Source of the DNA: a virus
Taxonomy: Duplodnaviria > Caudoviricetes
IMG/VR virus record: IMGVR_UViG_3300049060_000034
Coordinates: 2,743 to 66,742 of that record
Length of the DNA: 64,000 nt
Reading direction: 5' to 3' (one strand)
Shown here: positions 1,753-47,716 of the stretch, one piece after another
Layout: the number at the start of each line of letters is the position of its first letter
How positions within the stretch are numbered: position 1 is the first letter of the stretch
The notes under the pieces: generated by a model
What the model was told of the DNA's origin: nothing
Databases searched by the model: none
The model's input: only the letters and a program-made list of their open reading frames with translations
Translations under genes and position numbers: made by a program

Positions 1753-2515
1753 GTTTCACCGTCCGTGGTTTGCAGAGTTTGATGATACTCAGATTCTGTG
1801 TAACATCATCATTTGCTGTAGCTTCAGCTTGTACCAACATAGTTACAGCAGTGGTGTTAAGATTCGATACTGTCAATGAATTATTACGCGCTAAATGTCG
1901 TTGACTACTACCTGACTGAACTCCTGCGCCATCTAACTGATTCAAGAACCCAAAGACTACATGAGCCTCACCAAAAATGTTGGTGGGTGATCTTCTAGTA
2001 TAGGTCCCTTCCACTCTCCACCATCCCGTATCCACATCTATCAGTCCGGTGTTTTCAACTACCTGAGCGTCGATACCAATCTGTAATCTTTTGTCGTTAT
2101 CGTTTGTAGCAAGATTGCCCGCATATAAGTACCATACGGAGTCTCCATCATTGGCTAAAGAGTTAGCAGGTAAAGAGAAGCTATGTAGAGAATCAAGACC
2201 CGCTCCCACATTACCTATAGTAGTTATATCTGTATATGGAAATATACTCTCAACCGGATTGGTATAACTAACTATAACTCCATCAGAACTAATTCTTATG
2301 AATCCATCCTGACCTCCATCATCTCTATAAGGGATGGTGATGATTCCTGGCTGAGGGTTCTGCCTCAGAGCCATATCCCCAACCTGATTCGGCACATTGC
2401 TCCTTACTCTATCTAGCTCCGTAGTTAGATAGTTCACCCTATCCGCCAAGTCACGAATGATCCTGGCAGTCTGAGAGTCCATCCCCGACAAGTTGGGCGT
2501 GTACAGATTAGGCAT
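1745..2515 (-). CDS. Tail fibre/virion-associated protein
   Basis: N-terminal coiled coil then beta-rich domain; lower GC than neighbours. Confidence 0.45.
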   Translation of the reverse strand: MPNLYTPNLSGMDSQTARIIRDLADRVNYLTTELDRVRSNVPNQVGDMALRQNPQPGIITIPYRDDGGQDGFIRISSDGVIVSYTNPVESIFPYTDITTIGNVGAGLDSLHSFSLPANSLANDGDSVWYLYAGNLATNDNDKRLQIGIDAQVVENTGLIDVDTGWWRVEGTYTRRSPTNIFGEAHVVFGFLNQLDGAGVQSGSSQRHLARNNSLTVSNLNTTAVTMLVQAEATANDDVTQNLSIIKLCKPRTVKLV

Positions 2516-2844
2516 TAGATTGTGTACGCCGAAATCCTTGCAGTCTCGGCCCCAGCGGCCCCAGCCAGATAGATGTCCTTCAAGCTAATCTGGTTATGGG
2601 ACGTGGCCCTCAAGACGTACTCCCTCCTGCCGTCCGCGTCAGCGAACAAGAATCCAGAGTCTGTCGCCAAGTTGACCGTCCCTGATTTGAAGACCAGATG
2701 GAAGGCGACTCCCGATCCCCACTGAATGTGGACCTCGGCTACCCGCCCCGTAAATAGGGTCCCCAATTGATTAGGGGTGGCCGTCTCGATCAAAGTGTAA
2801 AGGTCCGACCCCGTCGTCGCCAAAGTAACTGTAGCTGCTATCAT
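2515..2844 (-). CDS. Small virion protein, paralogue of the C-terminal domain of 2854..4209
   Basis: ATVTLAT...FTGRVA...FHLVFKSGTVNLATDSGFLFAD aligns by eye with the C-terminus of the upstream ORF. Confidence 0.6.
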   Translation of the reverse strand: MIAATVTLATTGSDLYTLIETATPNQLGTLFTGRVAEVHIQWGSGVAFHLVFKSGTVNLATDSGFLFADADGRREYVLRATSHNQISLKDIYLAGAAGAETARISAYTI

Positions 2845-2853
2845 TTCGTCTCC

Positions 2854-4209
2854 TTAGATTATGTGAACCGTGATCTTCGCCGTCTCCCCGCCCACAGAGC
2901 CCGCCAAATAAACCTCGGCCAGGGACAACTGGTTGTTGTCCCTGGCCTCATACTGCCAGTGCTTCTTGCCGTTTACGTCGGCGAATTCGAAGCCGGAATC
3001 CGTCGTAAGATTAACCGTTCCTTCCTTATACACCAAGTGAAAAGTTCCACTCTGATGCTGGATCGAAAGATCGGCCACCCTCCCCTGAAACGTCCGGGGA
3101 AATGTCCCCAGGGTTTCTTCCATCAATACGTACACGGGCTTACCTACGGTGGCCAACGTGACCGTGGCCGTCATCAGCGTGTTGAAGGCGATCTCTGTGA
3201 CTGCCCCACCCGTAAGCGTGGGAATCCCGAACGCCTCCGCCGAAGGAATCCCAGTAGCCGTGATGGTTTGATCTCCTCCGGCGACGGAGATCACTGGCGT
3301 CCCGAACGCTTCCGCGCTGGGTATTCCCGTGGCGCTAATGTTTAACTCTAGCGCAGGAGTTCCAAACGCTTCCCCACTAGCGATGCCGGTCGTGTCGATG
3401 TTCAACTGGACCGACGGGGTTCCGAAAGCCTCAGCCGATGCAATGCCAGTCGTGTCAATGTTGAGTTGAAGACTGGACGTTCCGAACGCTTCAGCAGATG
3501 CGATTCCAGTAGCAGTAATGGTCTGAGTCCCAGCAGCCGCAGGGAGGACCTCTAATGCTACCCAGTTCCAAGCAGCGGCCCCAGTCCCACCAGCGTCGAA
3601 GTTCATCGTGACCGTCGAGCCAGAGGTGGGAGTATTCGCCGCTTTGTATAGGGAGATTACAGAGATCGCTCCCGAGTAATCCGCCCCATCTTCAGTATCT
3701 GTCGAGGTCGGTGTGCCTAGCTGGTTCCAGCAGGTTGCGCAACCAAATCCCCTAGAGTTATCCGCCGAAGAAGTGTAAGCGTTGGGAGTGATGTTGTTGG
3801 TGGTACTACTTCCTTCACCAACGTTCCCTATCGGGTCACCCCCGATGTCCGCTCCCGTAACAACCTCGACCTTGACACTGATACGATTGGTCGATCCGTT
3901 CCCAGCAGTCCTTCTAACGCTCACCGTCCTGGATGCGCTAGTAGGCTGTTCCGCCGTCCAGATCGAGGCGTGGCCCGCCTCCGCCCCCGCGTCTCCGGGA
4001 TCTCTCTCGACTCTATTCGTCCATGTCAAACCTCCGCTGTCACTAACAGAGATGGTTATGTCCGCAGAGGAGCCATTCGTGTCCGCAGACACATGAACTA
4101 CCAACAGCGAATTGGCCGGAGCAGTAAACGACGCAGACGTAATGTCCACGTTGTTCGCTGGAGTCCCGGTAAACCTAATAGGACTGGAGGCATCTATTGC
4201 GATGGCCAT
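2854..4209 (-). CDS. Virion fibre/appendage protein with five about-20-aa TGI(A/P)SxEAFG repeats
   Basis: Repeats visible in the translation (about 3221-3525); beta-rich N-terminal domain. Confidence 0.55.
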   Translation of the reverse strand: MAIAIDASSPIRFTGTPANNVDITSASFTAPANSLLVVHVSADTNGSSADITISVSDSGGLTWTNRVERDPGDAGAEAGHASIWTAEQPTSASRTVSVRRTAGNGSTNRISVKVEVVTGADIGGDPIGNVGEGSSTTNNITPNAYTSSADNSRGFGCATCWNQLGTPTSTDTEDGADYSGAISVISLYKAANTPTSGSTVTMNFDAGGTGAAAWNWVALEVLPAAAGTQTITATGIASAEAFGTSSLQLNIDTTGIASAEAFGTPSVQLNIDTTGIASGEAFGTPALELNISATGIPSAEAFGTPVISVAGGDQTITATGIPSAEAFGIPTLTGGAVTEIAFNTLMTATVTLATVGKPVYVLMEETLGTFPRTFQGRVADLSIQHQSGTFHLVYKEGTVNLTTDSGFEFADVNGKKHWQYEARDNNQLSLAEVYLAGSVGGETAKITVHII

Positions 4210-4628: not shown

Positions 4629-7600
4629 TATATTTTTGCTCCTCCGTTAGATCGACTGACGTCTCCGAACGGCTTGATTGTGTTATAGGCGTCTCCTCTT
4701 CCCCAGGCTCCTGCCTTGATTTCAATGTCGGCGAGCCACAGTCCGAAGGGTTGGGAGGAAGTGAATCGGAACTTGTGGTACTTCGCTTTGATCGCTTGCG
4801 TAGGTAAGTAAGAGCGGACCCGAGCACCGCCCCCGTGCGGAATGGTATAAACATTGGTGACTCCGTCCGTTATTACAGACATTGTAATATTCGCAGTCGA
4901 GCGATGTGCGATCATCACTTCCCTAATATGGGAATAGAATGGCAAATCGAAAGAAGTGACCTGGGTTTCCCAAGTGGTAGCCTGCTCAGGCTCTGGTTCC
5001 CAGATCCACTCTATTCCCATATTTCTCCAGAGGTCCCCGTCGGTCCCCCTAAGTCTGAATTCGTGCGCCACGACCGGGTTCGTCAAACTGTAGGCGATCA
5101 CTTGTTCCCCGTTCGAGTTGAAGGTGAACGCCTCCACGGCCACAGCCGACCCGTCGATCTCCACCTGGAATGACTTGGTCAGTCCGAGCGTATCCCCACG
5201 CAGTCTGAACCCTTGCAGGTACTTCGCGCCGTTATAACCACCGCCGTCCCAATCAGTAGCGCGATTAACCTGTTCTTCCGCCTTGACGAGTCCGGCAGGC
5301 TCCCAAGCATATAGTCTTGGAGTTCCCGCAGATCCATCATTCCATGTAAGGTCAAGAGCCACTCCTCTAACGATTCTTCCGCTACCCGAATTGATGTCTC
5401 GAACATGCTGGTCCCTCACACTGCCGGTTATGACGTCCAGTACATCGTTGCTAGTGTTGCTCTCATAGCGAGCCGTCGGGGTGATGGTGGCCGAGCCGGG
5501 GTTGACGTCGATCACCAAATCTCCCACCTGCTTGGTCCCACGGATGTCATCCCAGATCTCCTCCCGATCCCACAGACGACAGGCTATGGGCGCGCTAGCG
5601 TCCGTGAAGGACGTCGAGAAGTTGCGAACCCTTCCGGTCTCACATCCCAAGATCAGGAAGTCGGTGTTGGTAGCTTGGATCTCCCTGGCCACTCGTATGA
5701 TGGGGAAGGCAGGGGACAGATCGACCGTCCACCCCCTGGTCAGGAAAGAGTAATAGAGGGTATAGCGTAGGGTGTCTAGGCCCTTGTAGTTGAAGTAAAG
5801 CCCGTCATAGGTGTACGTCAGGGAGATCTCGTCTTCCTGCGTGAAGTCCACTGCGGAGACCGGCGCGGAGAAGGCGGTGTTGACTCCGTCCTTTCGGAAG
5901 AGGGGCGACAGGGAGTCGTCCGTCAGACTCTCCAGGGCGTTGCCGTCGGTTCTGTAGATCCCATCATGGGACACGAAGTAGATGCCGTCCCCAACGGCGA
6001 GGCCGTATCGAGCAGCCACACCTTTACCCATTCCGGTCTCTTGAGGATAGAAGGAGGACCCGCCTCCTGTTTCTCCCCCAGTAAAGGAGGGCAAGATCCT
6101 CCAACTTCTCCTGTCGCTAAAGCAGAACACGATCCCGTCGAGGATGCAACCGTTCATCAGCTTCTCGGAAGGAGAACACAGTTCCAGGAAGTTAACATCC
6201 GACGCCGACTCTGGATCATTGCCGTTGGTCCAGATCAGGAAGCCCGGATTGAGAGGATCTCCCACTCCGAAGAAGAACTCTCCTCCGGCTCCACTGTAAG
6301 GACCAAATACGGCGGGGAGTCCTTGCGAATCCAACAACGGTTCCGGCATGAACCAAGACACGTTGGTCTGGGTCCCCCCATTCTCGTTGATCTCAACTCG
6401 GGTGGTCGAGGTCGGGTTGGTGTAGATGCTGTAGAACTTACCATTGATTATGATCTGTGACCCGCGCACCCATTGGACATTGAAGTTGTCCCCTCCCGTG
6501 CGGATCACGGTCGTGCCCACAACGTTACAGGTGCCAGTACGGGGGAGGTCGGGCCTCGGCCACGGCTTGAAGCGGTCCATTTGGACAATCGGATTCCTTC
6601 GAGCCGTCGAGTCCGGAATGTCATCCTGGAATATGGACGAGGACGCGGGCGTGACCGTGCCTATGTAGTGATAGTCTCCCAGTGTGCCGCCGATACGGAA
6701 CACGTCCAACACGTCCGCCTGCGTGTCCGTGTAGGCTGGCATCGTCACCTTCACCAGTCTGCGGCGACTGAGAATAGGAGATCTCGTAGGAGGCGAAGGA
6801 TTCGAGACGCTGCCAGTAGTAGTATTCCTGGCCCGATAAACATAGTTATAACCAGGAAGGTCGTGCGTGTCCGGCCCATGTGTGCCTCCCACCCAAATGT
6901 CGTCAATCCCGTAGGCCACTGCGGACGTGGTCTGAAAAGAAATCTGGAACGCGGCCACGTTGGCCCACGTCCGAGTCTCGTCGGTCCCGACTCGTTGGAA
7001 GGCGGAGATCGGAAGGAACAACTCGGTCCACTGGTTGTCACCCGAGTCGGCGGGCAGCGAGACGGGAGCCAAGTCCTGCCCTATCTCGAACCCCGGCCCC
7101 AGAGCCCGGTTGATGTCGTCGAGAGTGGTCCTCTGAAGGTTGCCCAGCGCGTCGATCTGCTGCCTGCTCAACTCCAACCCCCGCTTGGCCAACTGGCTGC
7201 GGACGAAGTCGTCTATCTGGGTCCGCTGAATCTCCACCTGCTGGGCGGAGATGGCCTGCGAAGTTCGGGCCACAGCCCCCTGCAAGTCAGGTTGACGCAG
7301 AGCTATGAAGTAGTAGTTGCGGGTGAAGTCGTTCGTCGTCGCGTCCACGTCGAAGCGGATCTGCACCTCCGTCAGGAAGTTGAACTGTCCCCTGATTCCA
7401 ACGTGGACGAAGTCGTCTGACTGGATCGGACGGTTCACACCCAGTCCGCCCTCCGAGATGTTAGCCACTGCCAAATTTAGCGCGGCAGTCTTCGAAGCAG
7501 TAGCCAGTCCGGCAGCCGTCGGCGTGAACTGCACGAAGTCAGCTACGATGGTGTTAGTGGCTACGTAGGTAGCTTCGAGGAAGCATCTGAATGACGCTGC

Positions 7601-17127: not shown

Positions 17128-18141
17128 TTAATCAGATTTATAAACTTGGGAGAACTTCCTACCTTGGTCGGTAGTTGGATTCCCATTGACGTCGAAATGC
17201 TGGTTAAACATTTCAGTTGCCTTAGCCACGCGGTCTCTGGACATGGCCAACTCCGACCTCTTCTCCGGTGGGACGAATTCCGTCGAACCTGGAGCGGGGG
17301 CCTTGTCGTGGGCATGCGGTTGGGCATGAGCCAAGGCTCTGGACTGTGAATAGTTCTCAAGAAGGGGAGTGAGACCGTTCTGGGGTTTGCCGAAGGGAGA
17401 GCCGGTAACACGGCTCGGGTCCATGGCAAACTCTTTCATGAGTTCAGCCCTCATCTCTTCTTTAAGCTTGGCCATTTCGGCCAGTCTGTTAGCTTCAAAG
17501 ATCTGTTGACGCTTAGTATCTACCGCATACTTGATGCGCCAATGTTGCTCGGGATCTTCCCCCGTATCGAGGTAGTGACCTACAAGGTCGTCCTCCAGGG
17601 GTTCCCCGAACAGCTTCATGTGCTGGGCTTGGACGCGGGACACTTTGCTTTGCAGTAGGGCGAAGTCTCGAAGCGCGGCTCCTGCCGTCTCCACTGTCAT
17701 AAACCTGCCCGACTGTTGCTGCTGTTGCTGATCCTGCCTCGGCGGGGTCGAGTAGTTAGGGGCCGTCGATCTGGGGATCTGAGGGACCTGGACCTGATCG
17801 TAGATCTGGTAGTCCTTCAAAGCCTGTTCATAAGCGGCGAGTTTGGCCGCCATCTCCGGAAGGGCGTCAAGCTTGCTCAACTCTCCCTGCACTTGGTTCT
17901 GCCACTGTTCGAGTCGGGCGCGGTCGGATTGAAGCTTCTGGTATTCTTGCTGAAGCTTCTGTTCGTAGGCTCGCTTCTCGTCAGCTAGCTGTTTGGTCTT
18001 GTTGGTATAGTCGGCTCCCCGGAGTAGGTCACTTTGAAGGTTCCCCTCGAAGTGCCGAATGTATTCGTCTCTGAGTTCACGCTGGACACGACCTTTGGCG
18101 ATCAGGTCATCCACTGCGCGTTCAATAGCTTCGTTAGCCAT
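17128..18141 (-). CDS. Capsid scaffolding protein
   Basis: Coiled coil containing DYTNKTKQLA, directly before the capsid gene. Confidence 0.7.
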   Translation of the reverse strand: MANEAIERAVDDLIAKGRVQRELRDEYIRHFEGNLQSDLLRGADYTNKTKQLADEKRAYEQKLQQEYQKLQSDRARLEQWQNQVQGELSKLDALPEMAAKLAAYEQALKDYQIYDQVQVPQIPRSTAPNYSTPPRQDQQQQQQSGRFMTVETAGAALRDFALLQSKVSRVQAQHMKLFGEPLEDDLVGHYLDTGEDPEQHWRIKYAVDTKRQQIFEANRLAEMAKLKEEMRAELMKEFAMDPSRVTGSPFGKPQNGLTPLLENYSQSRALAHAQPHAHDKAPAPGSTEFVPPEKRSELAMSRDRVAKATEMFNQHFDVNGNPTTDQGRKFSQVYKSD

Positions 18142-18238
18142 TCGACTCCTTTGGACTCCCCAGGGGGTTGGTGTTGTTCGGGAGCTACCCTCACGCGACT
18201 CCCTCCAGGGGTTGGTTTACAGGTTTGGTGTCATGGGA

Positions 18239-18595
18239 TTACATCATCATGTCCGCCCCCGGCATCGCGCTGGGCTGCGGAGTCATGGTGACAAGAACTT
18301 GTTGTCTCCACTGGTCGAGAGCTTCCATCATCTGCGAGGCGACTTGTTCCGAGCCCGGAAACATCCTGGCCAAATCAGCTATTAGCTGGGCCAGTTGATC
18401 GAACTGGTTGAGTCCCATTTGCAAAGGATCAATAGCGCCCGCCATTGGCGGAGGTCCACCCGCTCCTAAGAGTGAAGCAAGATCGCCCCCAGGCCCTGGT
18501 CCCGTTGGCCCACCCGGTTGGGGCGGGGGCATCGGTCCAGGCATGGGAGAGCCCATCTGGTCATTCGCTCCTGGCATTAAAGGTAGTACCGGCAT
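18239..18595 (-). CDS. Pro/Gly/Met-rich hypothetical protein
   Basis: AGGAG RBS before ATG 18595 (MPVLPLMPG); the longer track start runs through the promoter. Confidence 0.55.
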   Translation of the reverse strand: MPVLPLMPGANDQMGSPMPGPMPPPQPGGPTGPGPGGDLASLLGAGGPPPMAGAIDPLQMGLNQFDQLAQLIADLARMFPGSEQVASQMMEALDQWRQQVLVTMTPQPSAMPGADMMM

Positions 18596-18679
18596 ATCGT
18601 CTCTCCTAATGGTCTGGGGAGGCTGCCCTCCCCAAACCGTTCTAAAGTAAGGAGGAACAATGCTTTTGTCCCCGTGCGC

Positions 18680-18708
18680 GTTATAATGACACACAACTTT
18701 AATGTCAA
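18680..18708 (-). promoter_or_regulatory. sigma70-type promoter for the scaffold/capsid operon
   Basis: TTGACA-17-TATAAC on the minus strand. Confidence 0.65.
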
Positions 18709-18762
18709 TAGGACACACGAATATGGTTAAAAAGAATAAATGAAGACAGATAGAAATAACTA

Positions 18763-18791
18763 TTGACATCTGTCTGAGGTCTGCCTATACT
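18763..18791 (+). promoter_or_regulatory. sigma70-type promoter for the RHH/ncRNA/RF/Ro60-like cassette (likely leaderless mRNA)
   Basis: TTGACA-17-TATACT; the GTG start lies 5 nt after the -10 box. Confidence 0.7.
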
Positions 18792-18796
18792 CCGCC

Positions 18797-18994
18797 GTGA
18801 CATTGAGACGAACAACATTGTGGATCGACGAAGAGAACTGGAGGCGACTTCAAGCGTACGCCGAAACCACTGATCACAGCGCCTCCCACCATTTGCGTGA
18901 GGCGGTTCGTCTGTATCTGAAAGTTATCGAGCTTGAACTGCTCGACAAGATCTTTGAAGATCAGAGGCCAGAAGACGAGGATACATGCATATAG
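18797..18994 (+). CDS. Ribbon-helix-helix (CopG/Arc-like) DNA-binding protein
   Basis: RRTTLWIDEENWRRLQAYAETTDHSASHHLREAVRLYL fits the RHH strand-helix-helix pattern. Confidence 0.75.
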   Translation: MTLRRTTLWIDEENWRRLQAYAETTDHSASHHLREAVRLYLKVIELELLDKIFEDQRPEDEDTCI

Positions 18995-19086
18995 CTCATT
19001 TAGCAGAGCAATCGGCTACTAACCGATGGGTAGCGGGTGCGAATCCCGCTATGCAACAACCAATCCCTCTCTTCGCTTTGCTTCTG
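18962..19086 (+). ncRNA. Y-like RNA 1, enclosing a complete tRNA-like domain
   Basis: CAGAGGC/GCTTCTG outer helix, CA opposite GCTTT, GAAGA(C)GAGG/CCTCTCTTC inner helix. Confidence 0.65.
18985..19057 (+). tRNA. tRNA-like domain with ACT anticodon (Ser-reading, no long variable arm)
   Basis: TAGCTCA D-arm, ATCGG-CTACTAA-CCGAT anticodon arm, GCGGG-TGCGAAT-CCCGC T-arm; 1:72 mismatch; no CCA. Confidence 0.6.
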
Positions 19087-19198
19087 TACAAGTTAGATCT
19101 GCCCTTAGAAAGGTTACATGCAAACTGATAATGATCGGGCCTCGGCCCCTTCTGATCTGTTAGACTAAACACCTCTCTATTCTCTGCGGGTCTTTAAG

Positions 19199-19314
19199 TT
19201 AAGGATTCGGTCGTTCTTTAACTGCCAGACACCTCTTGGCTTTGGCGTCTGGATGAATCGAACTCGACAATCTTTTTGTATCTCAGGGCTACGCGGCCCA
19301 ACCCGAATCCTTAA
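19199..19314 (+). ncRNA. Structured RNA of unknown class
   Basis: Perfect 12-bp closing stem TTAAGGATTCGG/CCGAATCCTTAA with two internal hairpins. Confidence 0.5.
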
Positions 19315-19320
19315 ACAAGT

Positions 19321-19446
19321 TGATTGCCATCGGCAGGCTTACATGCATCAGTTTTAGGGACTGAAACAAGCCGGTTCGACTCCGGCCACCCCCGTCACTT
19401 GTGGGGGTGTAGCAAAACGGACAACGCCTACTGAGCTATGCGATCA
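19321..19446 (+). ncRNA. YrlA-like Y RNA with permuted tRNA domain (UAG loop)
   Basis: TGATTGC-CA / GCTAT-GCGATCA motif; order is anticodon-like arm, T-arm, acceptor hairpin CACCCCC/GGGGGTG, D-arm. Confidence 0.7.
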
Positions 19447-19455
19447 TCGTTTTGG

Positions 19456-19524
19456 TGCGGATGGGCCAGTGCCCAGTTGGGGCTCATAATCCCGACAGGC
19501 GCGGTGCGACTCCGTGATCCGCAA
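19456..19524 (+). tRNA. tRNA-Met/Ile2(CAT)-like with reduced D-arm
   Basis: TGCGGAT/ATCCGCA acceptor, CTCATAA loop, TGCGACT T-loop. Confidence 0.5.
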
Positions 19525-41273: not shown

Positions 41274-41356
41274 GGCCCCGTAGCCTAATGGAAGCGTACG
41301 CGATAGGCACTCGTTTCCTAAACGAGAAGATATGGGTTCGAATCCCATCGGGGTCT
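41274..41356 (+). tRNA. tRNA-Arg(CCT) with enlarged D-loop
   Basis: GGCCCCG/CGGGGTC, CTCGT-TTCCTAA-ACGAG, TTCGAAT T-loop. Confidence 0.8.
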
Positions 41357-44070: not shown

Positions 44071-44106
44071 GGGGCGGGGTCACAGGATACGTGGCCTCGC
44101 CTTTTT
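44071..44106 (+). terminator. Terminator-like hairpin
   Basis: GGGCGGGG...CCTCGCCC followed by TTTTT. Confidence 0.5.
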
Positions 44107-44177
44107 CCCTAGTAACTCAGTGGTAGAGTACGACGCTGTTAACGTCGGAGTCCCTGGTTCGAATCCAGGCTAGGGAG
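44106..44177 (+). tRNA. tRNA-Asn(GTT)
   Basis: Canonical cloverleaf, CGACG-CTGTTAA-CGTCG. Confidence 0.9.
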
Positions 44178-44308
44178 TGGGCCGCCCGCCGAACCTAGTG
44201 CCGGTCACTTGTCGAGGTGGCTGTCCGGACTATATCCTCGATTCATTCCGGTCAGTGTTAGGTCTCGACGGCCCAGTAACAACAACTAACTAACAAAGGA
44301 GACCACCT

Positions 44309-44504: not shown

Positions 44505-44578
44505 GGCTCCGTAGCTCAATTGGATAGAGCAAGGGAATTCTAATCCCTAGGTTGAGGGTTCGAATCCTTCCGGAGTCA
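44505..44578 (+). tRNA. tRNA-Arg(TCT)
   Basis: Canonical cloverleaf, AGGGA-ATTCTAA-TCCCT. Confidence 0.9.
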
Positions 44579-47643: not shown

Positions 47644-47716
47644 GGGCCTATAGTTCAACTGGATAGAGCGCAGCCGTGCGAAGGCTGAGATCGAGGTTCG
47701 AATCCTCATAGGCCCA
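47644..47716 (+). tRNA. tRNA-Arg(GCG)
   Basis: GGGCCTA/TAGGCCC, CAGCC-GTGCGAA-GGCTG, TTCGAAT; Arg-type D-loop AACTGGATA. Confidence 0.8.

What the first reader, a model, noticed from the sequence alone, without database searches (positions are those of the whole stretch)
18962..19086. A whole tRNA with a rare ACU anticodon nested in a Y-like stem that overlaps the RHH gene's last codons
Seen: the cloverleaf (18985-19057) has loop CU-ACU-AA, no Ser-type long variable arm, a TGCGAAT T-loop and no CCA. It sits inside the motif-bearing stem, whose 5' strand is the final 33 nt of the RHH ORF (stop at 18994). Known: A34 anticodons other than Arg(ACG) are very rare in bacteria. Inference: either a tRNA mimic displayed by Ro60, or a precursor whose folding or release is coupled to translation of the regulator, which would give autoregulation.
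Basis: partly seen in the sequence, partly recalled or inferred. Interest (0 to 1): 0.7.

Follow-up and report, generated by a model that had tools for sequence, protein, structure and literature searches.

The report
tRNA-shaped cargo in Ro60-type RNA scaffold
A phage carries a perfectly folded tRNA look-alike clamped in a conserved stem beside a divergent Ro60-like gene; relatives keep the stem and the cloverleaf but change or delete the anticodon, so it is most likely a Y-RNA-type tRNA mimic, not a decoder.

Summary
ARAGORN and Rfam both call a 73-nt tRNA at 18985-19057 (anticodon ACU, 51.8 bits). It sits in a two-helix stem (18962-18980 / 19066-19086) with an asymmetric internal loop (CA opposite GCUUU). 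The last 33 nt of a probable RHH ORF run through the stem's 5' strand, and the stop codon is U8-A9-G10 of the tRNA.

Three other RNAs in the window share the same stem base. So do tRNA-like units upstream of homologous genes in dozens of IMG/VR phages. The 533-aa gene 1.1 kb downstream has no Pfam TROVE hit but folds as Ro60; the 12 best PDB matches are all Ro60/TROVE.

Four orthologues keep the acceptor and D arms almost unchanged and the other arms by compensatory changes. Their anticodons are ACU, UCA, UAU, a 4-nt UUGA, or the arm is deleted. Of 16 motif-linked tRNAs, 9 have impossible or stop anticodons, against 3 of 162 ordinary ones.

Best reading: a Y-RNA-like unit with a non-permuted tRNA as cargo, not a decoder. 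Binding by the Ro60-like protein is inferred, not shown.

The RHH overlap is confined to one lineage (3 phages), and there the sequence is constrained at the RNA level. Coupling to translation is possible but unsupported.

The parts
18763..18791 (+). sigma-70-like promoter TTGACA-17-TATACT for the RHH/RNA-array transcript
   Evidence: 11 of 12 matches. The same layout of -10 hexamer, 5 nt, then GTG start is seen in L001 and L002, suggesting a leaderless mRNA.
18797..18994 (+). probable ribbon-helix-helix regulator ORF (65 aa); its last 33 nt lie inside the RNA unit
   Evidence: Pfam RHH_1 E 3e-3 and RHH_3 E 1.4e-2, both below the cut-off. NCBIfam RelB-like antitoxin E 1.4e-5. Homologous ORFs sit in L001 and L002.
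18962..18968 (+). outer helix, 5' strand (CAGAGGC)
   Evidence: Folds. A-U here is G-C in L001, a compensatory change.
18969..18970 (+). 5' side of the conserved asymmetric internal loop (CA)
   Evidence: Present in all four window units and in L001 and L002.
18971..18980 (+). inner helix, 5' strand (C18976 bulged)
   Evidence: The helix sequence differs in L001, L002, L007 and L064, but pairing is kept.
18982..18987 (+). UACAUG junction motif, spanning the last 3 linker nt and tRNA positions 1-3
   Evidence: On the gene's strand, the motif occurs 1.40 times per kb in the 2 kb upstream of Ro60-like genes, against 0.21 per kb elsewhere.
18985..19057 (+). tRNA-shaped domain, anticodon ACU at 19018-19020
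   Evidence: ARAGORN. Rfam tRNA 51.8 bits. Compensatory changes in the anticodon and T stems among orthologues.
19058..19065 (+). single-stranded 3' linker AACCAAUC, holding an out-of-register ACCA
   Evidence: Sequence. Relatives have an in-register NCCA in 8 of 19 units.
19066..19074 (+). inner helix, 3' strand
19075..19079 (+). 3' side of the internal loop (GCUUU)
   Evidence: It reads GCUUU, GCUAU, GCUUU and GCUUC in the four window units.
19080..19086 (+). outer helix, 3' strand (GCUUCUG)
19321..19790 (+). three further units on the same scaffold (19321-19446, 19527-19632, about 19637-19790) with other cargos. Two are permuted tRNA-like domains of the YrlA type.
   Evidence: same base architecture. 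(a T arm followed by a closed acceptor hairpin at 19370-19411 and 19693-19735).
19823..19846 (+). terminator-like hairpin between the RNA array and the protein genes
19857..20228 (+). GGQ (RF-1 domain) protein of PrfH/ArfB type. The ORF is open from 19836.
   Evidence: Pfam RF-1 E 8e-14. phrog_3122. NCBIfam PrfH E 2e-13. Conserved in L002.
20203..21765 (+). divergent Ro60-like protein (HEAT ring plus vWA domain with a DxSxS MIDAS motif). The ORF is open from 20164.
   Evidence: AF2 model pLDDT 80.7. Foldseek ranks 1-12 are all Ro60/TROVE, E 2e-10 to 3e-7. phrog_850 'RNA-binding protein'. No Pfam TROVE hit. The database gene call is 520 aa.

Best explanation
The 125-nt stretch 18962-19086 is the first unit of a phage array of Y-RNA-like non-coding RNAs. 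The array is transcribed from the promoter at 18763-18791 together with the RHH mRNA.

Each unit has a constant base: outer helix, CA/GCUWY asymmetric loop, inner helix, then UACAUG. This base is most likely the docking site of the co-encoded Ro60-like ring protein. Each unit also has a variable cargo. Here the cargo is a complete tRNA-derived cloverleaf in normal (non-permuted) topology, whose acceptor stem continues into the scaffold.

The cloverleaf is selected for shape, chiefly the acceptor/T-arm half, and not for decoding. It would act as a tRNA mimic that brings a tRNA-recognising partner to the Ro60-like particle, or shields the RNA from nucleases. Candidate partners are RNase P, the CCA-adding enzyme, modification enzymes, PNPase and host tRNA-targeting nucleases.

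Shown: the structure, its conservation and covariation, its linkage to the Ro60-fold gene, and the free variation of the anticodon.

Inferred: binding by the Ro60-like protein, non-aminoacylation, and the identity of the partner.
For: (1) It is a genuine cloverleaf.

(2) The same base architecture occurs in all four window units and in 5 of 5 orthologues with different helix sequences. Across 19 units, cognate flanks pair far better than non-cognate ones (p 9e-13). Flanks of ordinary tRNAs in the same loci average -15.0 kcal/mol, against -26.2.

(3) The neighbouring gene has a Ro60 fold. The UACAUG units pile up on its strand within 2 kb upstream in 30 of 40 loci, about 6.7-fold enriched.

(4) Orthologues share the identical 20-nt motif-plus-5'-acceptor/D segment TACATGCATATAGCTCATTT. 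Their anticodons are ACU, UCA, UAU or a 4-nt UUGA, and in L002 the D/anticodon arms are deleted, leaving a 41-nt minihelix. The anticodon and T stems change by compensation: 8 of 19 pairs changed on both sides.

(5) Family-wide, 9 of 16 motif-linked tRNAs have A34 (other than ACG), stop, 2-nt or 4-nt anticodons, against 3 of 162 ordinary tRNAs (Fisher p 6e-9). G34 occurs in 0 of 19, against 46 of 159.

(6) An encoded CCA is present in 8 of 19 units, against 137 of 159 ordinary tRNAs. That is far above chance yet relaxed.

(7) For this copy: an A1/A72 mismatch, G18 and U55 both replaced, no long variable arm for Ser identity, and no A20 for Arg identity. AGU makes up only 55 of 504 Ser codons in 16 long ORFs. 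The phage has no deaminase gene.

(8) There is precedent. Bacterial Y RNAs carry tRNA-like domains, and D. radiodurans Yrn1 has the non-permuted orientation (PMC4201824). Phage Ro60 binds phage-encoded Y-like RNAs (PMC12135203).
Against: No experiment or transcript data exist; binding is inferred from linkage alone.

The motif-linked tRNAs score as well as ordinary tRNAs on the Rfam tRNA model (48-65 bits). They keep C32, U33, A37 and A38, and many encode CCA. Some could therefore be excised and charged.

The known bacterial Ro60-binding motif GNCGAAN0-1G is absent from the stem. No Rfam family other than tRNA reached its gathering score, and apart from the tRNA match the permissive scan listed only weak sub-threshold matches to other families.

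The protein fails Pfam TROVE and profile-to-PDB sequence searches.
Confidence: 0.6

Rival explanations
1. It is a working phage tRNA that reads AGU. The flanking stem is only a processing or stability element of the precursor, and the tRNA is released by RNase P and 3' trimming.
For: The cloverleaf is excellent (51.8 bits). All arms are maintained by compensatory change. The loop context C32-U33...A37-A38 is canonical. Relatives often encode NCCA. The body resembles tRNA-Asn genes of cultured phages (about 81% over 60 nt). The phage carries several other tRNAs.
Against: The anticodon differs in every orthologue. The variants include an opal-suppressor type in L001, whose Ro60-like ORF is uninterrupted in the standard code, plus 8-nt and 6-nt loops and a complete arm deletion.

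A34 in a split codon box has no known bacterial decoder. G34 is absent from 19 units.

This copy has an A1/A72 mismatch, altered G18/U55 and no in-register CCA. It has no Ser-type long arm and no A20.

AGU is a minor codon.
Confidence: 0.15
2. In this lineage the unit doubles as a translation-coupled switch for the RHH regulator. Ribosomes finishing the ORF melt the stem. Any 5' maturation of the RNA removes the stop codon (18992-18994) or the last 11 codons, turning the RHH message into a non-stop mRNA. The co-encoded GGQ (PrfH/ArfB-like) factor might resolve that message.
For: The overlap and the TCI-stop ending are conserved in the window, L001 and L002. The stop codon is tRNA positions 8-10, from direct reading of the sequence. 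The GGQ gene is present in the window and L002. The RHH appears to be leaderless and at the extreme 5' end of the same transcript.
Against: Of the motif-linked tRNA units, only three have the RHH overlap: the window, L001 and L002. L007 and L064 orthologues have no ORF there.

The overlapped nucleotides are 85-88% identical, against 56-57% for the ORF body, and are read in two different frames. The constraint is therefore on the RNA, and the peptide tail is a by-product.

No GGQ gene was found on the 9.7-kb L001 contig.
Confidence: 0.15
3. The stems are generic excision cassettes, for example double-strand-specific nuclease sites as around rRNAs. They cut a polycistronic RNA into units and have no role for the Ro60-like protein.
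For: The units are tandem and each is bracketed by a helix of about 16 bp. The arrays sit in or near tRNA gene clusters in many loci.
Against: A conserved asymmetric loop plus the UACAUG sequence, set between freely covarying helices, looks like a specific protein site rather than generic duplex. There is strict strand and distance linkage to the Ro60-like gene. The helices are short and interrupted.
Confidence: 0.07
4. It is a decaying tRNA pseudogene with fortuitously complementary flanks.
For: The unusual anticodon, the 1:72 mismatch, the altered elbow nucleotides and the absence of an in-register CCA.
Against: Compensatory evolution in all stems. The conserved scaffold in orthologues. The family-wide statistics.
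Confidence: 0.03

Closest known systems
D. radiodurans Yrn1 (Y RNA bound by Rsr/Ro60; Chen et al. 2014, PMC4201824)
   Same: It is encoded upstream of the Ro60 gene on the same strand. The Ro60-binding stem is formed by the 5' and 3' ends, and the tRNA-like domain has the non-permuted orientation with a closed 'anticodon arm'. It is made in a polycistronic precursor together with other Y RNAs and a tRNA.
   Different: Yrn1 is only partly tRNA-like: it has a 6-nt 'anticodon' loop, no variable arm and an incomplete D arm. The phage unit is a full cloverleaf scoring 51.8 bits on the tRNA model. The stem motif also differs: CA/GCUUU plus UACAUG, rather than the GGUCCGA/GNCGAA-type sequence. The partner protein is too divergent for Pfam TROVE.
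YrlA RNAs of Salmonella, Mycobacterium and mycobacteriophages (Chen et al. 2014; bioRxiv 10.1101/312249)
   Same: Y RNAs next to Ro60 with a tRNA-mimicking domain. D and T arms are highly conserved. M. smegmatis YrlA is cut by RNase P and receives CCA. Two other units of this window (19321-19446 and about 19637-19790) have the YrlA-type permuted layout.
   Different: In YrlA the acceptor stem is closed and the RNA ends leave at the anticodon position. Here the acceptor is open and the anticodon arm is closed. The GNCGAAN0-1G motif is absent. No Rfam family other than tRNA reached its gathering score, and apart from the tRNA match the permissive scan listed only weak sub-threshold matches to other families.
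Thermus phage phiLo Ro60 with Yrl1/Yrl2 (PMC12135203; PDB 9KOP, 9L5Y)
   Same: A phage-encoded Ro60 with Y-like RNAs encoded just upstream. It is the best structural match to the window's protein.
   Different: Per that paper, the phiLo RNAs were picked by the CGAA motif, and no whole-tRNA cargo is described. Aligned identity to the window's protein is only 15-16%.
Ordinary phage tRNA genes (tRNA-Asn type)
   Same: The body is about 81% identical over about 60 nt to annotated phage tRNA-Asn genes. L001 and L002 carry a normal tRNA-Asn(GUU) right after the unit.
   Different: Non-canonical and non-conserved anticodon, a 1:72 mismatch, no in-register CCA, and enclosure in the conserved scaffold.

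Membership tests
tRNA (Rfam RF00005), structural membership | Cloverleaf scoring above the family's gathering score | tested here: met
   51.8 bits against a gathering score of 29, full-length match. ARAGORN also calls it.
Functional (decoding) bacterial/phage tRNA | The anticodon is one used by bacterial decoders and is conserved among orthologues | tested here: not met
   ACU has A34 in a split codon box. Orthologues have UCA, UAU or a 4-nt UUGA, or lack the arm. 9 of 16 motif-linked units are odd, against 3 of 162 ordinary tRNAs.
Functional (decoding) bacterial/phage tRNA | Paired 1:72, G18/U55 elbow contacts, and an in-register CCA as in the phages' other tRNAs | tested here: not met
   A1/A72 mismatch, D-loop AUUUAGCA and T-loop UGCGAAU. 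CCA is 2 nt out of register. 137 of 159 ordinary tRNAs in these loci encode CCA.
Functional (decoding) bacterial/phage tRNA | Aminoacylation and use on the ribosome | not testable with these tools
   This needs acid-gel or charging assays. Sequence shows no long variable arm (Ser identity) and no A20 (Arg identity); this inference rests on established identity rules.
Y RNA (Ro60-associated ncRNA), broad sense | Encoded within about 4 kb of a Ro60 gene on the same strand | tested here: met
   The Ro60-fold gene at 20203-21765 (+) starts about 1.1 kb downstream. The UACAUG motif is enriched upstream of homologues.
Y RNA (Ro60-associated ncRNA), broad sense | Terminal stem with a conserved bulged or looped helix formed by the 5' and 3' ends | tested here: met
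   The motif sequence differs from known ones.
Y RNA (Ro60-associated ncRNA), broad sense | Physical binding to Ro60 | not testable with these tools
   This needs EMSA or co-immunoprecipitation.
YrlA family | GNCGAAN0-1G motif near the 5' end | tested here: not met
   The motif is absent from 18962-18984. The only CGAA lies in the T-loop.
YrlA family | Permuted tRNA-like domain (T arm, closed acceptor stem-loop, D arm) | tested here: not met
   This unit has normal tRNA connectivity. The neighbouring units do have the permuted layout.
YrlA family | Match to a curated RNA family model | tested here: not met
   cmscan of 17500-21500 against all 4227 Rfam families at E up to 10: only tRNA passed its gathering score, and apart from the tRNA match only weak sub-threshold matches to other families (tmRNA pieces, a frameshift site, a miRNA, a riboswitch, a snoRNA) were listed.
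Ro60/TROVE proteins (for the partner gene) | HEAT-repeat ring plus C-terminal vWA domain with MIDAS | tested here: met
   The AF2 model (pLDDT 80.7) matches 9KOP, 9L5Y, 1YVP and 2NVO over about 510-585 aligned columns, TM 0.46-0.63. A DxSxS motif is seen in the translation.
Ro60/TROVE proteins (for the partner gene) | Sequence match to Pfam TROVE (PF05731) | tested here: not met
   No hit at E up to 10. No hit in the six-frame search of the phage. No PDB sequence hit, even with a 32-sequence profile.

The most novel reading that the evidence does not exclude
A phage-specific Ro60-like particle displays a set of tRNA-shaped domains (whole and permuted) on one scaffold. The anticodon loops are free to diversify, and the domains serve as baits or adaptors for host tRNA-targeting or tRNA-processing enzymes. 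In this lineage, maturation of the first unit also cuts the stop codon off the mRNA of the cassette's own RHH regulator. That makes a non-stop message handled by the co-encoded GGQ (PrfH/ArfB-like) factor, which would be an RNA-processing-coupled regulatory loop.
Probability: 0.1. Interest if true: 0.85.

Novelty: new variant of a known kind. Interest (0 to 1): 0.65.

Why it matters
What the tRNA-like domain of bacterial Y RNAs is for remains an open question; Chen et al. 2014 say the interactors are unknown.

This phage family offers a natural experiment. One scaffold carries whole tRNAs, permuted tRNAs and plain hairpins. The whole-tRNA cargo keeps shape but not anticodon, and one relative keeps only the acceptor/T minihelix. 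This points to the upper half of the L-shape as the functional part.

It also defines a new stem motif and a large Ro60-like protein family that standard domain models miss: more than 600 homologues, almost all viral. That gives direct handles for binding and structural work on how phages use Ro60-type particles.

Tried and rejected
The closest loci studied are therefore at 56-57% identity.

2. A metagenome scan with the single protein found nothing. The 20-mer DNA scan gave one new orthologue, L064.

3. The 16-mer DNA scan of IMG/VR mostly hit an unrelated coding sequence. Only 3 of 17 hits were true units.

4. RNAalifold on a MAFFT alignment recovered the cloverleaf but not the flanking stem, because the flanks misalign. 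I used per-sequence folds and a cognate/non-cognate duplex test instead. No covariance model was built.

5. A34-to-inosine editing by a phage enzyme was considered. There is no cytidine/adenosine deaminase domain in the phage.

6. An opal-suppressor or recoding role was considered because L001 has UCA. There is no sign of in-frame stops in the matched genes.

7. tmRNA and permuted-tmRNA readings of the neighbouring T-arm hits fall far below threshold.

8. An attP/integration-site reading was considered. It is a whole tRNA, not a 3' fragment, and no integrase was seen nearby.

9. A crude automatic census of scaffold units was too noisy to quote beyond order of magnitude: 124 UACAU[GA] sites, 16 with whole-tRNA cargo.

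10. The genome-contig scan gave only four full-length relatives, all on short MAG contigs, so no host could be assigned.

Full report
WHAT IS THERE

The window is most of a 66.7-kb IMG/VR phage record. ARAGORN finds a 73-nt tRNA at 18985-19057 with anticodon ACT. The Rfam tRNA model matches it end to end at 51.8 bits, E 2e-9.

Read from that alignment:
- the anticodon loop is CU-ACU-AA on a 5-bp stem;
- the variable loop has 5 nt;
- the T-loop is UGCGAAU and the D-loop AUUUAGCA, so both partners of the usual G18-U55 contact are replaced;
- positions 1 and 72 are A/A.

There is no CCA at 74-76, but an ACCA sits 2 nt further on (19059-19062).

Folding 18962-19086 gives the cloverleaf inside a stem (z -4.5):
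- outer helix 18962-18968 / 19080-19086;
- internal loop CA (18969-18970) opposite GCUUU (19075-19079);
- inner helix 18971-18980 / 19066-19074.

ORF 18797-18994 is 65 aa. It gives weak but consistent RHH_1, RHH_3 and RelB-like hits. It ends in TAG at 18992-18994, which is U8-A9-G10 of the tRNA.

CONTEXT

A near-consensus promoter lies at 18763-18791, and a terminator-like hairpin at 19823-19846. Between them lie the RHH ORF and four RNAs with the same base: outer helix, 2-nt CA, inner helix with a 1-nt bulge, and a 5-nt GCUWY loop on the return strand. Two of the others carry a T arm followed directly by a closed acceptor-like hairpin, which is the permuted YrlA layout.

Downstream come two protein genes:
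- a GGQ/RF-1-domain protein, whose best NCBIfam match is PrfH, with ArfB also matched;
- a 533-aa ORF, 520 aa as called in the protein database.

The 533-aa ORF has no Pfam hit at all, and the phage has no TROVE match in six frames. It does have a DxSxS motif and a PHROG 'RNA-binding protein' hit. An AlphaFold model built on 32 homologues (pLDDT 80.7) matches only Ro60/TROVE structures in ranks 1-12. These include Thermus phage phiLo Ro60, Xenopus and human Ro60, and D. radiodurans Rsr, at E 2e-10 to 3e-7 and TM 0.46-0.63. It is a divergent Ro60-like protein.

The family has more than 600 homologues. It has one hit among deposited phage genomes, an unannotated 595-kb uncultured phage. It has only four full-length hits in 185,579 species genomes, all on short MAG contigs.

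RELATIVES

Forty-six IMG/VR loci encode homologues. UACAUG is 6.7-fold enriched on the gene's strand in the 2 kb upstream, and 30 of 40 loci have two or more copies. The sites head tandem units with the same base architecture.

Four orthologues of this particular unit share the identical 20-nt motif-plus-5'-acceptor/D segment. These are L001, L002, L007 and L064. All fold with an outer helix, an asymmetric loop and an inner helix. The helix sequences differ; for example the inner helix begins GAAGA, GAAAAG, GACAAG or AGUGAUC, each with its complement.

Across 19 motif-linked tRNA units:
- 5' and 3' flanks of the same unit pair at a mean of -26.2 kcal/mol, against -13.1 for flanks of different units;
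- the cognate partner ranks first in 17 of 19 (p 9e-13);
- flanks of 156 ordinary tRNAs in the same loci average -15.0.

DECODER OR MIMIC?

Among the orthologues the anticodon and T stems are fully re-written but stay paired: 8 of 19 pairs changed on both sides. The loop keeps C32, U33, A37 and A38. The triplet, however, is ACU, UCA, UAU or a 4-nt UUGA. In L002 the D and anticodon arms are gone, leaving a 41-nt acceptor/T minihelix in an intact scaffold.

Family-wide:
- 9 of 16 non-redundant motif-linked tRNAs have A34 other than ACG, a stop anticodon, or a 2- or 4-nt 'anticodon', against 3 of 162 other tRNAs (Fisher p 6e-9);
- G34 occurs in 0 of 19, against 46 of 159;
- their tRNA-model scores (48-65 bits) are as good as those of ordinary tRNAs;
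- an in-register NCCA is present in 8 of 19, far above chance but well below the 137 of 159 of ordinary tRNAs.

The body looks derived from a tRNA-Asn-type gene. L001 and L002 have a normal tRNA-Asn(GUU) right behind the unit.

For this copy:
- AGU is a minor serine codon, 55 of 504 in 16 long ORFs;
- there is no phage deaminase;
- by the established identity rules the RNA has neither the long arm SerRS needs nor the A20 ArgRS needs (inference).

Selection thus acts on tRNA shape, not on a codon assignment. The L002 deletion points to the acceptor/T half as the essential part.

THE RHH OVERLAP

Homologous RHH ORFs precede the unit in L001 and L002 and end in the same T-C-I-stop. The 33 overlapped nucleotides are 85-88% identical, against 56-57% for the ORF body. 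A 1-nt indel means GAGGCC is read as (CA)G-AGG-CC(A) in the window and as GAG-GCC in L001 and L002. The constraint is therefore on the RNA.

L007 and L064 orthologues have no ORF there, and no other motif-linked unit has an RHH relative upstream.

Two things follow from the geometry alone, by inference. A terminating ribosome must melt the 5' strand. Any 5' maturation of the unit removes the stop codon from the RHH message. The presence of a GGQ rescue-type factor in the window and L002 makes a coupling conceivable. It is not a family feature and it is untested.

COMPARISON WITH WHAT IS KNOWN

Bacterial Y RNAs near Ro60 mimic tRNA (PMC4201824). YrlA has a permuted layout and a GNCGAAN0-1G motif. 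D. radiodurans Yrn1 has the other orientation, with a closed anticodon-like arm, but is only partly tRNA-like. M. smegmatis YrlA is cut by RNase P and receives CCA. Phage Ro60 with Y-like RNAs is documented for mycobacteriophages and for Thermus phage phiLo.

The present unit works like these. It differs in four ways:
- the cargo is a complete, normally connected cloverleaf;
- the stem motif is new (CA/GCUWY plus UACAUG);
- no Rfam family other than tRNA reaches its gathering score;
- the protein escapes TROVE models.

Full-text searches found no description of this arrangement.

I class it as a new variant of a known kind. A search of earlier findings by sequence found no look-alike on other DNA.

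LIMITS

No covariance model of the scaffold was built.

Noticed in passing
window 19456-19524 (+): ARAGORN calls a 69-nt tRNA-Met(CAU) between units 2 and 3. It does not reach the Rfam tRNA gathering score. By eye, a similar element with a CU-CAU-AA loop lies at about 1340-1410 of L001.
   Followed up: partly
window 19087-19320 (+): A 230-nt structured segment (z -3.6) with a UACAUG at 19115 and a 12-bp long-range helix (about 19199-19210 / 19303-19314). It fills the place where L001 and L002 have a normal tRNA-Asn(GUU). Its nature is unknown.
   Followed up: partly
window 41274-41356 and 47644-47716 (+): Two further unusual tRNAs lie outside the cassette. tRNA-Pro(AGG) has A34 and a 13-nt insertion in the D-loop (Rfam 60 bits). 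The other is tRNA-Arg(GCG).
   Followed up: no
window 19857-20228 (+); L002:2960-3286: A small GGQ-only release-factor-like protein. Its best NCBIfam match is PrfH, the partner of RtcB2 in ribosome repair, with ArfB weaker. It is conserved next to the RNA array in L002, which links a ribosome-rescue-type factor to a Ro60-like cassette.
   Followed up: partly
window 18786-18799; L001 about 690-708; L002 about 2005-2024: In all three phages the RHH start GTG lies 5 nt after the -10 hexamer. The regulator is probably translated from a leaderless GUG-start mRNA.
   Followed up: partly
window 44105-44178 and 44505-44578 (+): The flanks of tRNA-Asn and tRNA-Arg(UCU) pair unusually well (-28.5 and -27.2 kcal/mol, against a mean of -15 for ordinary tRNAs). 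They may also sit in scaffold stems.
   Followed up: no
L009:5789-5860 and 6430-6505: In this locus the motif-linked tRNAs (anticodons AUC and the ochre-type UUA) lie downstream of the Ro60-like gene rather than upstream.
   Followed up: no
L018, L013, L022 (about 2000-3500): More distant relatives carry 6-7 tandem units with the loop variant (U)ACUG ... CGACUACAG. Their Ro60-like genes are embedded in clusters of 10-20 ordinary tRNA genes.
   Followed up: partly
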